From assembly GCA_965224245.1 (NCBI GenBank), contig OZ245046.1, positions 3,328,001 to 3,392,000 of the forward strand: DNA of 64,000 nucleotides, written 5' to 3'. The DNA comes from Candidatus Eiseniibacteriota bacterium (GTDB lineage Bacteria > Eisenbacteria > RBG-16-71-46 > CAZAMP01). The position numbers were made by a program, and so were the translations under genes. This document shows, one piece after another, positions 48,448-51,759 of this stretch. Each line of letters starts with the position of its first letter. The first letter of the stretch is position 1. The notes beneath the pieces are model-generated. The model saw only the letters and a program-made list of their open reading frames with translations. It was not told the origin of the DNA and made no database searches.

Positions 48448-49146
48448 GTGAGACAGAAGCCGTGGCAGAAGAAGGTGATTCGCCAGCTACCAACGTACGG
48501 GGGGCGGCTCGTCATCTTCTGCGGTCAGGGCAACGAGCCGATGCTCAGCGTCCTGCGATCGCACGTGCGGAGCTCCTCGGGAATCTGCCTGACGCTGGCG
48601 AAGAAGTGGATGTGCGAGCTGAGCAACGGACGCGACTTCTGGGACTGGATGATGCCCGGAGGTCAGCTGAACGCGGCCGCGGCCGCGAGCATCACGATCC
48701 AGCACGTCGACAAGGGACGGGCCGACGTCCCCGAGACGACCTCGGGTCAGCGGGCGCCGAGCCACTCCGGGACCACCGATGCGCAGTTCCTCGCGTTCTA
48801 CGGTCAGCTCGAGTCGTCCAAGCTGGTCATTCCGGGCGGCGCCAGCGGGTTCGGAAACCCTCCGGCGGGCGAAGTCCCCGCGGCGCTCGGCGCCGTCGTC
48901 CGGGACAAGCGACCTCCGGCCCAGGCCTATGCCCTGTTCAACATGCACGCCGACGGAGCGTCCGGACACTCGGTCGCCGCCGAGGCGATGAACTACGGCA
49001 TGGTCAGGTTCTACGACCCCAACATCGGAGAGATGGTCTTCGAGCGCGCGGACAGCTTCGCGGGCTGGATGGCCGACGTGCTCGGCAGCGAGGTCTACCA
49101 GACGTACACGGCCTTCAACTACCGGTGGTACAGCCGCTCGAGCTGA
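48448..49146 (+). CDS. YopT/AvrPphB-type (C58) cysteine protease domain protein
   Basis: GICLTLAKKW (Cys), GHSVAA (His), FYDPNIGE (Asp) in canonical order. Confidence 0.75.
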   Translation: MRQKPWQKKVIRQLPTYGGRLVIFCGQGNEPMLSVLRSHVRSSSGICLTLAKKWMCELSNGRDFWDWMMPGGQLNAAAAASITIQHVDKGRADVPETTSGQRAPSHSGTTDAQFLAFYGQLESSKLVIPGGASGFGNPPAGEVPAALGAVVRDKRPPAQAYALFNMHADGASGHSVAAEAMNYGMVRFYDPNIGEMVFERADSFAGWMADVLGSEVYQTYTAFNYRWYSRSS

Positions 49147-49256
49147 TCGGGTTCCCGGCTGTACATGCCGGGGTCAGAACGCATTCTCCGGGGGAAGGGC
49201 CGGTCTCTGCATTCTCGGTCCGCTTCCGGCGAGCATCGACGTGGCGTTCTCATCGG

Positions 49257-49282
49257 CGAACGTGTACCCGGGTACACGTTCG
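49257..49282. repeat. Perfect 26-bp palindrome within a 60-nt extended hairpin
   Basis: CGAACGTGTACCC|GGGTACACGTTCG, flanked by GTGGCGTT (49241-248) and AACGCCAC (49293-300). Confidence 0.85.
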
Positions 49283-49627
49283 ATCAGCATCAAACGCCAC
49301 CAGAATGGTGGGTTGCATCGCAACCGTCAGGAAAGTGAAAGATCGGCCCTCCGGAATCACCCGTTGCCATTTCGGTAGGATCAGAAGGGCCGCCGACGGA
49401 GAGAGCCGCATGGCCGTCGAGGTTCGCTGGCGTCCCAACCGCGAGCCTGGTCATCAAGTGTCGGAGCATGCCGGCACACGTTGCATCGCGCACATCCACT
49501 TCGAGTCCACCCGCAGGGTGAAGCGATGCAGGACGGAACCATCGGGCCGCCTCGCGATGGTAGTAAGAGCAGGTCGGACGAAAGCAAACGGCAGCGGACG
49601 GCTTCGACTGACTGGCAGGCGTTGAGA

Positions 49628-49704
49628 TGGAGGGGACTCCGGGGGTTGAACCCGGGACCTCCAGATCCACAATCTGGCGCTCTAACCAGCTGAGCTAAGT
49701 CCCC
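49628..49704 (-). tRNA. tRNA-His (GUG) with encoded CCA; atypical U73, no encoded G-1
   Basis: GGGGACT-TA-GCTC-AGCTGGTTA-GAGC-G-CCAGA-TTGTGGA-TCTGG-AGGTC-CCGGG-TTCAACC-CCCGG-AGTCCCC-T-CCA; all four stems fully paired. Confidence 0.96.
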
Positions 49705-51098
49705 AAGATCGATCTGACCGCGTCGACGACCGCGCCCGGTGCGACCGTCGACTGCGTGCGCGCACGCATGTCCTTCACCTGCACCTGTCCCGCTTCGGCG
49801 TCGTCGGGTCCGATGATCACGACCACCGGGACGCCCTGCCGCGCGGCGTACGAGATCTGTGCCTTGAAGGAGGTGTCTTCGCCCACGTAGATCGACGTGG
49901 CAACACCCGCGCGCCGCAGCTCGCCCGCGAGTCGTTGGTACCCCGGAACGAGCTCCGAGGCGAAGTTGACGATCATCACCTCGGTTACGGTGCGGGCGGA
50001 ATCTAGCATACCGAGGGCTTCCATTCCCGCGAAAAGCCGATCCACCCCGACCGACGTTCCCGTGCACGGCACGGCGGCGTCGGGCATGAACCGGCCGATC
50101 AGCGTGTCGTACCGTCCGCCCGAGTACACCGTCCCGATCTCGCGGCAGTCGTCGAGCACCGCCTCCCAGATGGGACCGGTGTAGTAGTCGAGCCCGCGCG
50201 CGATCGTCGGGTCGATCCGCCAGTCCGAGTCCGGAACGCCCGCGTCCCGTACGTACGCGGCGATGCGCCGCAGCTCGTCGAGCCCCTCACGCCCCAGCGG
50301 AACGTCGCCGAGAAACGTCTCGAGGCCGTCGAGCACGGCACCGATGTCGCCCTCGATCCCGAGGTAGCGCTCGACGAGCCCAATCTGTTCCGGGCTCAGC
50401 CCGAGTCCTCCGCCGTCACCCCCGGGGTCGCCCGAGCTCGCGGGTCGGGCCAGCTCGGCCAGGACGCCCTCGAGACCATCCTTGTCGATCTTGTCGAGCA
50501 CGCGGATCACCGCCGCGACCTCGTCGGGCGAACGGTCGAAGCCGCCCTTGGTGGCGAGCCCGTTCAGGATCTTCCGGTTGTTGACGCGAATCGTGAAGCT
50601 CGTGAAACCGAGCTCGCGGAGCACGGTGCTCATGATCACGATCATCTCGGCGTCGGCGAGCATGTCGCTCGTCCCCACCACGTCCGCGTCGAACTGCAGG
50701 AACTCGCGGAAGCGTCCGAGCTGCGGCTTCTCGCCACGCCACACCGCACCGATCTGGTAACGCTTGAACGGCTTCGGCACGTCCGGGTTCGCGGCCACCA
50801 CGCGGGCCAGCGGCACCGTCAGATCGAACCGGAGCGCGACCTTCTGGTTGGCCTCCTTCGGCTCGCGGCCCAGCCACCCGCCGCCGCGCGAGACGAATGT
50901 CCGGTAGATCAGCTTCTGGGTGTCGGTCTCGCCGCCCATCAGGACGCCCAGTCGCTCGACGGCCGGCGTCTCCAGCGGATCGAACCCGAATCGCTCGTAC
51001 ACGCGCCGGACGCGATCGATGATCGCCATCCGCTGGACCTGTCGGTCCGGCAGGTAGTCGCGGAACCCTCCCGCCAGGAGGGGCTTCACCTTGCTCAC
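49695..51098 (-). CDS. hisS: Histidine--tRNA ligase
   Basis: GFRDYLP, LETPAVE, LRFDLTVPLAR, WRGEKPQLGRFREFLQFDAD, ARGLDYYTG, GGRYD, GVDRL, C-terminal anticodon-binding domain. Confidence 0.97.
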   Translation of the reverse strand: MSKVKPLLAGGFRDYLPDRQVQRMAIIDRVRRVYERFGFDPLETPAVERLGVLMGGETDTQKLIYRTFVSRGGGWLGREPKEANQKVALRFDLTVPLARVVAANPDVPKPFKRYQIGAVWRGEKPQLGRFREFLQFDADVVGTSDMLADAEMIVIMSTVLRELGFTSFTIRVNNRKILNGLATKGGFDRSPDEVAAVIRVLDKIDKDGLEGVLAELARPASSGDPGGDGGGLGLSPEQIGLVERYLGIEGDIGAVLDGLETFLGDVPLGREGLDELRRIAAYVRDAGVPDSDWRIDPTIARGLDYYTGPIWEAVLDDCREIGTVYSGGRYDTLIGRFMPDAAVPCTGTSVGVDRLFAGMEALGMLDSARTVTEVMIVNFASELVPGYQRLAGELRRAGVATSIYVGEDTSFKAQISYAARQGVPVVVIIGPDDAEAGQVQVKDMRARTQSTVAPGAVVDAVRSILGT

Positions 51099-51182
51099 GT
51101 CGGTTCGCTCCGGTTGACCGGCCCCGGGGCCGACCCCGTCCGGTTCGCGGCCCCGTCGATCCGTGGGGTTTTGGAGCGGAGG

Positions 51183-51211
51183 AGAATAGGGCGGCCCCCC
51201 GGGAACGTCAA
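51183..51211 (-). promoter_or_regulatory. Sigma70-like promoter for hisS-tRNA(His): TTGACG-17-TATTCT
   Basis: Minus-strand -35 at 51211-51206 and -10 at 51188-51183, 17-nt spacer. Confidence 0.65.
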
Positions 51212-51246
51212 CTCCGAGCGGGCCACTTGAGGGACCCGGGTCCGCG

Positions 51247-51759
51247 TCAGGGTATCTCCTCGACGGGACCGTGCGTCTCGAGCCACTCCATCAGCATCGT
51301 GTAGACCTCGAAGTAGGTCGCACGGCGGACGGGGTGGGTGTGGTCGAGGAGCGCCTTCGGATCGATCCACGAGAACTCGTCGAACTCCTCGGAGACGGCG
51401 TCTTCCTCAATCTCACCCTCGAGCCTCAGAACGAACCAGATGTGGGATTGGCCGTCGTAGAGGCCGGTCTCCGACCCGCCGGCCCAGACGTAGCGCGTGC
51501 GCCGGGGAAGCAGGCCGAGGATCTTCACCCGCCGCGTGCCCAGCTCCTCGTACAGCTCGCGGAGCACGGCCTCCTCGGCATTCTCGTTCTCGTCCATCCC
51601 CCCCTGGGGGAACTGCCAGTGCGGGGACTCGGAGTCGTTGCGCCGCCCGACGAGGAGCCGACCCGCGGCGTCGAACACGAGCGCGCCCACGGCCGGACGG
51701 AAGCTGGGGCCGCCCTTGCCGAAGTGTGACTCGTCGCTGTTCGTCAGATCCGCCGCCAT
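51247..51759 (-). CDS. rppH: Nudix hydrolase, RNA pyrophosphohydrolase RppH-like
   Basis: FRPAVG, WQFPQGG, Nudix box GMDENENAEEAVLRELYEELG, GQSHIWF, EFDEFSW. Confidence 0.82.
   Translation of the reverse strand: MAADLTNSDESHFGKGGPSFRPAVGALVFDAAGRLLVGRRNDSESPHWQFPQGGMDENENAEEAVLRELYEELGTRRVKILGLLPRRTRYVWAGGSETGLYDGQSHIWFVLRLEGEIEEDAVSEEFDEFSWIDPKALLDHTHPVRRATYFEVYTMLMEWLETHGPVEEIP

What the first reader, a model, noticed from the sequence alone, without database searches (positions are those of the whole stretch)
49628..49705. tRNA-His lacking the G-1:C73 identity pair (encodes U-1 and U73)
Seen: an otherwise perfect cloverleaf with GUG anticodon. The base 5' of G1 is T (49705) and the discriminator before CCA is T (49631). 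Established: almost all bacterial tRNA-His encode G-1 paired with C73, the major HisRS identity element. The best-known exception is a group of Alphaproteobacteria (for example Caulobacter) with no G-1 and A73. Inference: U73 without G-1 would be a different identity solution, either anticodon-driven recognition or post-transcriptional addition of a -1 base by a Thg1-like enzyme. It could be a naturally orthogonal His pair.
Basis: partly seen in the sequence, partly recalled or inferred. Interest (0 to 1): 0.85.

Follow-up and report, generated by a model that had tools for sequence, protein, structure and literature searches.

The report
Histidine tRNA without G-1, with U73
The only histidine tRNA gene of this uncultured bacterium lacks the extra 5' G and the C73 that nearly all bacteria use to mark this tRNA, and it is fused to the end of the gene for the enzyme that loads it, so histidine identity seems to have been rewired here in a way not reported for bacteria.

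Summary
Window 49704..49628 (- strand) is a high-scoring tRNA-His(GUG) with a 7-bp acceptor stem (G1:C72), U at -1, U73 and an encoded CCA. It is the only real tRNA-His in a 97% complete genome. Independent short-read contigs agree at both bases.

New here: the tRNA lies at the end of the genome's only hisS gene. The hisS TAG stop codon is tRNA positions 8-10, a 10-nt overlap.

No Thg1-like gene is present, and a normal bacterial RNase P RNA is. The mature tRNA therefore most likely starts at G1.

Within the phylum (206 genomes; earlier notes and one NCBI name say Eisenbacteria) the state is derived and rare:
- 108 genomes show C73 among the listed rows.
- Only this genome shows U73.

The nearest HisRS relative with DNA (G045, 51% identity) also has hisS followed by a tRNA-His without C73 (A73). 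G014 carries an alphaproteobacterial-style pair instead.

This HisRS lacks the alphaproteobacterial signatures. It keeps the motif-2 Gln and has a clade-specific loop insert where other HisRS hold G-1.

Verdict: a new bacterial variant of G-1-independent histidine identity; the mechanism is untested. Unchecked notes of this scan report G-1-less tRNA-His/HisRS pairs on other DNA (CPR, an Ignavibacteria-like genome).

The parts
49628..49704 (-). tRNA-His(GUG) gene, 77 nt: 7-bp acceptor stem with G1:C72, 9-nt D loop with U20a, variable loop AGGUC, encoded CCA
   Evidence: ARAGORN; Rfam RF00005 70.2 bits; sequence read
49705..49705 (-). Position -1 = U (T in DNA): no encoded G-1
   Evidence: Logan contigs with 0 differences across it (records 6 and 14)
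49631..49631 (-). Discriminator U73
   Evidence: Logan contigs of two samples cover it (records 1, 9, 17, 25)
49668..49670 (-). Anticodon GUG
49695..51098 (-). hisS, 467 aa (P0001), the only HisRS-family gene of the genome; cyanobacterial/Bacteroidota/eukaryote-like type
   Evidence: the ORF listing; translation; TIGR00442 351 bits against a cut-off of 286.75; the only PF13393 match in G000; nearest solved structures 3NET and 6NHI
49695..49704 (-). 10-nt overlap of hisS and the tRNA: the last hisS codons Leu-Gly-Thr-stop are read from U-2, U-1 and tRNA positions 1-10, and the TAG stop is U8-A9-G10
   Evidence: coordinates; sequence; translation
50844..50891 (-). HisRS residues S70-Q85 (SRGGGWLGREPKEANQ): a clade-specific insert in the loop that aligns with the G-1 pocket loop (Gly72'-Gly73') of T. 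thermophilus HisRS
   Evidence: alignment; shared only by P0002, L117 and L120; the pocket is described in PMC4357726. The role of the insert is inferred
50706..50735 (-). HisRS motif-2 loop GEKPQLGRFR: it keeps the Gln that is Gly in alphaproteobacterial G-1-less HisRS
   Evidence: alignment; Gly123/Gln123 covariation in PMC3937112
51183..51211 (-). Only sigma-70-like promoter match in 49200-51500, just upstream of hisS. None lies inside hisS ahead of the tRNA, which fits one hisS-tRNA transcript (weak)
   Evidence: 1 site against 0.2 expected in shuffles; 0 terminator-like sites

Best explanation
This is the cell's single, working tRNA-His. It is transcribed as the 3' end of the hisS message. 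Ordinary RNase P cuts it at G1, because U-1 cannot pair with U73. It therefore matures without any -1 nucleotide, with G1:C72 and U73. The adjacent, sole HisRS charges it without using the G-1:C73 pair. Recognition most likely rests on the GUG anticodon plus a remodelled acceptor-end contact. The clade-specific RGGGW loop insert sits where other HisRS accommodate G-1. Shown: gene anatomy, uniqueness in the genome, absence of Thg1, presence of RNase P RNA, rarity in the phylum, and linkage with hisS in the nearest HisRS relative. Inferred: the mature 5' end, co-transcription, and what HisRS reads.
For: - The tRNA is real and canonical in fold.
- It is the only real tRNA-His among 55 ARAGORN calls in a 97.39% complete genome. 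The second 'His' call is a 97-nt misfold.
- The only PF13393 match in the genome is the gene that overlaps it.
- No Thg1 or Thg1C domain is found at E<=1.
- Bacterial type A RNase P RNA is present, 245.6 bits.
- Both odd bases are confirmed in independent contigs.
- The state is derived. In 34 of 40 sampled relatives tRNA-His has g at -1 and C73. In one search, by my hand count, 117 of the 150 listed rows are tRNA-His 3' halves: 115 with C73 (108 genomes), one with U73 (G000), one with A73 (G014).
- In the HisRS tree G000+P0002 (SH-aLRT 100) is sister, at support 85, to P0003+G045/P0009. G045 has hisS, then 28 nt, then a tRNA-His with G1:C72, A73 and no CCA, and that is its only HisRS.
- Among the 29 hisS-region loci L039-L067 from relatives, tRNA-His was found only in L039, G014, so linkage goes with the non-canonical tRNAs.
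- Precedents show that HisRS can work without G-1 by leaning on the anticodon: Caulobacter crescentus (PMC3064791, abstract and sections read) and T. brucei, whose tRNA also has U73 (PMC4338351).
- hisS has genome-average GC, so it is a resident gene.
Against: - There is no RNA evidence: the mature 5' end, charging and co-transcription were not observed.
- HisRS keeps the motif-2 Gln and the basic motif-2 residues of canonical enzymes, so no known G-1-independence signature is present.
- In C. crescentus a U72C change costs 91-fold, so C72 here means the Caulobacter rules cannot simply be transferred.
- The loop insert lies in a hypervariable region. Clade members next to canonical tRNA-His (L114, L116, L122) also lack the GG dipeptide, so its role is a guess.
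- The one same-family genome (G001) gives no answer: its hisS is cut at a contig end and no tRNA-His is among its 37 recovered tRNAs.
- 2.6% of the genome is unassembled.
Confidence: 0.72

Rival explanations
1. A -1 nucleotide is added after transcription by an enzyme unrelated to Thg1, or RNase P cuts one base early and leaves U-1. The mature tRNA would then still carry an extra 5' residue and phosphate for a conventional HisRS pocket.
For: HisRS keeps the motif-2 Gln and the basic residues that contact the G-1 phosphate in T. thermophilus. The 5' phosphate matters more than the base (PMC4338351 passage).
Against: No Thg1 or Thg1C domain at E<=1. U-1 cannot pair with U73, and the altered RNase P cut is tied to a stable G-1/C73 pair (PMC3064791 discussion). 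No other family of -1-adding enzymes is known (my recall).
Confidence: 0.08
2. A canonical G-1:C73 tRNA-His lies in the unassembled part of the genome, and the copy in the window is a spare or a decaying gene.
For: The genome is 97.39% complete in 27 contigs. tRNAs are often missed in metagenome bins.
Against: The copy scores 70.2 bits with a perfect cloverleaf and CCA and is fused to the only hisS. It lies on the 6.45-Mb main contig. A relative's HisRS clade shows the same linkage with a non-C73 tRNA.
Confidence: 0.07
3. There is no special co-adaptation. HisRS simply tolerates a poor substrate, and co-expression from one transcript (a high local supply of both) compensates, as overexpression does in yeast lacking G-1.
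For: Yeast survives without G-1 if the tRNA and HisRS are overexpressed (cited in PMC3064791). The operon arrangement would give coupled expression. No known signature change is seen in HisRS.
Against: A tRNA with G1:C72 and U73 shares its discriminator with this genome's tRNA-Gly, Thr and Cys, so weak discrimination would be costly. The HisRS subclade has a conserved insert at the pocket loop.
Confidence: 0.1
4. Assembly or sequencing artefact at 49631 or 49705.
For: None found.
Against: Logan contigs of four runs from two samples show 0 differences where they cover the sites.
Confidence: 0.02

Closest known systems
G-1-less tRNA-His with divergent HisRS in the RRCH clade of Alphaproteobacteria (Caulobacter crescentus; Yuan et al. 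2011, PMC3064791; Amrine et al. 2014, PMC3937112)
   Same: No encoded G-1, no C73, a 7-bp acceptor stem, a 9-nt D loop with U20a, and a HisRS of the same broad (eukaryote/cyanobacteria-like) type at 36-40% identity. It probably works alike, through G-1-independent, anticodon-weighted recognition.
   Different: U73 instead of A73 and G1:C72 instead of G1:U72 (U72C costs Caulobacter HisRS 91-fold). HisRS keeps Gln where RRCH enzymes have Gly (KPQLGRF against KPGPGRF). It has no acidic pair at the pocket position and sits in a different HisRS clade. The tRNA is fused to hisS, whereas the two are unlinked in the two alphaproteobacterial records checked. It is in another phylum.
Trypanosoma brucei tRNA-His with its G-1-independent HisRS (Rao and Jackman 2015, PMC4338351)
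   Same: The only published tRNA-His I found with both no G-1 and U73. That organism also has no Thg1. The anticodon contributes to recognition and U73 alone is not sufficient (review PMC9976931).
   Different: It is a eukaryote. The T. brucei and T. cruzi HisRS structures (3HRI, 3HRK) are more distant from this protein (E about 1e-34) than human or Nostoc HisRS, so this is convergence, not kinship.
Canonical bacterial tRNA-His (encoded G-1 paired with C73, retained by an unusual RNase P cut)
   Same: The GUG anticodon and the general cloverleaf. This is the state of 34 of 40 sampled relatives.
   Different: Both halves of the defining pair are absent here.
tRNA genes co-transcribed with, or overlapping, protein genes (animal mitochondrial 'tRNA punctuation'; bacterial mRNA-tRNA co-transcripts): my recall, not searched
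   Same: tRNA excision would define the 3' end of the upstream message.
   Different: Here excision at G1 would remove the stop codon of a bacterial aaRS message, and the tRNA is that enzyme's own substrate.

Membership tests
Canonical bacterial tRNA-His identity (G-1:C73) | Encoded G at -1 | tested here: not met
   T at 49705; confirmed in contigs
Canonical bacterial tRNA-His identity (G-1:C73) | C73 discriminator | tested here: not met
   T at 49631
Alphaproteobacterial (RRCH) G-1-less tRNA-His/HisRS pair | No G-1 | tested here: met
Alphaproteobacterial (RRCH) G-1-less tRNA-His/HisRS pair | A73 discriminator | tested here: not met
   U73; feature defined in PMC3064791
Alphaproteobacterial (RRCH) G-1-less tRNA-His/HisRS pair | G1:U72 pair | tested here: not met
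   G1:C72
Alphaproteobacterial (RRCH) G-1-less tRNA-His/HisRS pair | 9-nt D loop with U20a | tested here: met
   The D loop is AGCUGGUUA. Not diagnostic: three family-f16 genomes have it together with g-1/C73
Alphaproteobacterial (RRCH) G-1-less tRNA-His/HisRS pair | HisRS motif IIb loop Gly in place of Gln | tested here: not met
   G000 has KPQLGRF. The four alphaproteobacterial HisRS, the 'Proteobacteria' MAG (L032) and G014 have KPGPGRF; PMC3937112
Alphaproteobacterial (RRCH) G-1-less tRNA-His/HisRS pair | Acidic residues replacing the Gly-Gly G-1 pocket | tested here: inconclusive
   The aligned positions read A-N in G000, next to a 16-residue insert, and the alignment of this loop is uncertain; PMC4357726
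Thg1-dependent G-1 addition | A Thg1/TLP gene in the genome | tested here: not met
   PF04446 and PF14413: 0 matches at E<=1
G-1-independent histidine identity in general (works like) | HisRS charges a tRNA that starts at G1; the anticodon is a major determinant | not testable with these tools
   Needs aminoacylation assays and 5'-end mapping

The most novel reading that the evidence does not exclude
hisS and tRNA-His form a self-contained, co-transcribed identity module with its own rule: no G-1, U73 read by the clade-specific RGGGW loop, plus the anticodon. Placing the hisS stop codon inside the tRNA (U8-A9-G10) makes tRNA maturation and complete hisS mRNA mutually exclusive. RNase P cleavage would leave a non-stop hisS message for tmRNA tagging, which gives a built-in balance between enzyme and substrate. 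Such linked modules would have replaced the canonical pair more than once in this phylum (G000, G045, G014), partly by lateral transfer.
Probability: 0.2. Interest if true: 0.85.

Novelty: new variant of a known kind. Interest (0 to 1): 0.68.

Why it matters
G-1:C73 is among the most conserved tRNA identity marks. [quoted passage not shown] The 2023 identity review lists only that clade among bacteria (PMC9976931).

Here a free-living bacterium of another phylum has lost both halves of the pair and uses a different acceptor end (C72, U73). Its HisRS lacks the alphaproteobacterial signatures. Two further non-C73 forms occur in the same phylum, each beside hisS.

If this holds, histidine identity is more evolvable than thought. 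It would also offer a compact, naturally linked HisRS/tRNA pair as a candidate orthogonal pair, and a testable case of gene overlap that couples tRNA processing to synthetase expression.

Tried and rejected
- **Second tRNA-His.** The ARAGORN call at C1:3072399-3072495 is a 97-nt misfold and was rejected.
- **Thg1-like enzyme.** None found.
- **Recent recruitment from another tRNA of the genome.** The best match is tRNA-Val, 61 of 77 identical, so no support.
- **Recent lateral transfer judged by composition.** hisS has genome-average GC.
- **The U20a/AGGUC tRNA body as a marker of G-1 loss.** Rejected: the pattern hits 5 of 206 genomes, and three of them (G060, G062, G066) are canonical.
- **A basic residue before the N-terminal GxRD motif as a marker.** Rejected: it is also absent in clade members beside canonical tRNAs.
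- **Close relatives' DNA.**
  - The genome-contig scan gave nothing above 40% identity.
  - The metagenome scan gave two close but truncated hits, L117 (81% over residues 2-175) and L120 (68% over residues 1-115). Neither reaches the 3' end.
  - P0002 (69% identity, on a 45-kb contig) could not be fetched as DNA.
  - G001 (same family) has hisS cut at a contig end and no tRNA-His.
- **RNA evidence.** No RNA holder was listed.
- **Papers.** Ardell and Andersson 2006 (PMC1363771) is not held. Supplements, which hold the HisRS alignments of PMC4357726 and Fig. S3 of PMC5389517 with phage U73 tRNA-His, are closed and may bear on the pocket and U73 claims.
- **Structure and complex prediction.** Not run: without coordinates they could not test the pocket.

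Full report
**1. Observation**

ARAGORN reports a single tRNA in the window, tRNA-His(gtg), at 49628..49704 on the - strand. The Rfam tRNA model scores it 70.2 bits (E 2.1e-15) over the whole model.

Reading the sequence gives a perfect 7-bp acceptor stem, G1:C72 to U7:A66. T stands at -1 (49705), T at the discriminator (49631), and CCA is encoded. A register shifted by one, making the first G a G-1, would destroy U8 and the D and T stems and would leave UCCA. I reject it.

Logan contigs from two runs of one sample cover both sites with 0 differences. Two runs of a second sample cover 49631. The first sample may be the source of the assembly.

**2. Is it the cell's tRNA-His?**

The window lies on a 6.45-Mb contig of a 6.94-Mb, 27-contig genome that is 97.39% complete.
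- ARAGORN finds 55 tRNAs in the whole genome, two of them called His. The second is a 97-nt misfold.
- The tRNA-His is not a recent copy of another tRNA; the best match is tRNA-Val, 61 of 77 identical.
- U73 is otherwise used here by tRNA-Gly, Thr and Cys. No well-formed tRNA call (one with an encoded CCA) in this genome has C73.

**3. Surroundings**

The ORF 51098..49695 (-) is histidyl-tRNA synthetase (TIGR00442, 351 bits). It is the only PF13393 match in the genome.
- Its TAG stop is at 49697..49695, which is tRNA positions 8-10. The two genes overlap by 10 nt.
- The only sigma-70-like site in 49200-51500 is just upstream of hisS, and no terminator-like site was found. This fits one transcript, weakly.
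- A NUDIX gene lies upstream.
- GC content is at the genome average.
- A bacterial type A RNase P RNA (245.6 bits) and a tmRNA are present.
- No Thg1 or Thg1C domain is found at E<=1.

**4. Relatives**

The genome's phylum holds 206 genomes in one class. Earlier notes of this scan say Eisenbacteria, and the NCBI name of P0009 fits.

In 40 sampled relatives:
- 34 have g at -1 and C73.
- One (G014) has t at -1, G1:U72 and A73.
- For five no tRNA-His was recovered.

A pattern running from the anticodon loop to the CCA end was searched over all 206 genomes. It listed 150 rows, and 43 more were not listed. By my hand count:
- 117 rows are tRNA-His 3' halves.
- 115 of these have C73. They come from 108 genomes, one of which is the unpublished G083.
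- One has U73 (G000) and one has A73 (G014).
- tRNAs without an encoded CCA escape this pattern.

The U73 state is therefore derived and rare. The one same-family genome, G001, is uninformative. Its hisS belongs to the same GGFRDYLP type but stops at a contig end, and no tRNA-His is among its 37 recovered tRNAs.

**5. The synthetase**

The nearest solved structures are 3NET and 6NHI, followed by human cytoplasmic HisRS entries.

A full search of 1.84 billion representative proteins gives one close relative, P0002 (69% identity). The next hits are at 52% or less.

In a quick maximum-likelihood tree:
- G000+P0002 (support 100) is sister, at support 85, to P0003+P0009.
- These lie inside a well-supported clade (99) that is separate from the other HisRS of this phylum.
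- P0009 is identical to the only HisRS of G045.
- G045 carries hisS, then 28 nt, then a tRNA-His with g at -1, G1:C72, A73 and no CCA.
- G020, of the same genus, has an unlinked canonical pair.

Among the 29 hisS-region loci L039-L067 from relatives, only L039 (G014) held a tRNA-His. G067, found in a later search, has a canonical one 785 nt upstream.

**6. Comparison with the alphaproteobacterial system**

The published features are A73, G1:U72, U20a and anticodon-dependent charging, with a 91-fold loss for U72C (PMC3064791). The HisRS has Gly in place of the motif IIb Gln (PMC3937112) and two Asp in place of the Gly-Gly G-1 pocket (PMC4357726).

Two alphaproteobacterial tRNA-His genes that I fetched show exactly these tRNA features.
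- **G014** matches them in the tRNA and in HisRS (KPGPGRF, an acidic pocket). It groups weakly with the alphaproteobacterial HisRS clade.
- **G000** shares only the absence of G-1 and the U20a body. It has C72 and U73, keeps Gln (KPQLGRF), and carries a 16-residue insert (S70-Q85) at the pocket loop. That insert is shared only with P0002, L117 and L120.

The loop is hypervariable in this clade. Members that sit next to canonical tRNA-His also lack Gly-Gly. The insert is therefore a candidate determinant, not a demonstrated one.

**7. Mechanism**

U-1 cannot pair with U73, RNase P is ordinary, and Thg1 is absent. The mature tRNA should therefore begin at G1.

Charging must then be independent of G-1. 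By analogy with C. crescentus and T. brucei, the anticodon is expected to carry much of the identity. The T. brucei tRNA also has U73, there called 'not found in other annotated tRNAHis' (PMC4338351). The acceptor end, U73 and G1:C72, would be read by a remodelled enzyme surface. These steps are inferred.

The overlap has a consequence. Cleavage at G1 removes the hisS stop codon, so processed transcripts would be non-stop messages and would be handled by tmRNA. Whether this is used for regulation is unknown.

**8. Novelty**

My full-text searches found G-1-less bacterial tRNA-His only in Alphaproteobacteria and in their phages' 8/4 tRNAs ('A73 or U73'; PMC5389517).

Unchecked notes of this scan report linked G-1-less tRNA-His/HisRS pairs in CPR bacteria, one of them with U73, and in an Ignavibacteria-like genome. 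The general phenomenon is therefore probably wider than the literature says.

This case is a new variant: a different acceptor end, a HisRS without the known signatures, and fusion of the two genes.

Noticed in passing
L039/L004 (G014:C71:269-345 tRNA; 391-1686 hisS): Another genome of the same phylum carries an alphaproteobacterial-style pair. Its tRNA-His has t at -1, G1:U72, A73 and U20a, and lies 45 nt upstream of a HisRS with the RRCH-type KPGPGRF motif and an acidic pocket. This looks like lateral transfer or convergence.
   Followed up: partly
L164 (G045:C10; tRNA 66953-67030, hisS 67088-68413, - strand): hisS is followed after 28 nt by a tRNA-His with g at -1 opposite A73, G1:C72 and no CCA. 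It is the only HisRS of that genome, while G020 of the same genus has a canonical, unlinked pair. G027 of that genus shows neither hisS nor tRNA-His in its assembly.
   Followed up: partly
window 49695-51098 (-): This HisRS contains no histidine at all (0 of 467 residues). 26 of the other 150 representative homologues are also His-free (median 4), so cognate-residue depletion recurs in this family.
   Followed up: partly
window 48462-49625 (+): A 387-aa ORF without a Pfam match converges on the tRNA and ends 3 nt from its 3' end. If it is real, a hisS-tRNA transcript has no room for a terminator and would run antisense into it.
   Followed up: no
L113 4282-4354; L115 1592-1664: In two metagenome contigs of the same HisRS clade a tRNA-Arg(UCU), not tRNA-His, follows within 30 nt of the end of the hisS match. 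In L114, L116 and L122 a canonical tRNA-His lies upstream on the opposite strand. tRNA genes next to hisS are common in this clade.
   Followed up: no
G000:C1:3072399-3072495: ARAGORN calls a 97-nt 'tRNA-His' here. The fold is poor, with a long extra arm and no CCA. I take it to be a false positive.
   Followed up: yes
G028:C35:8493-8535 and G073:C373:1370-1412: Two genomes of family f7 share a conserved stretch that fits the anticodon-to-CCA pattern and ends ...ACAUCCA, yet it does not look like a tRNA T arm. It is probably coding sequence.
   Followed up: no
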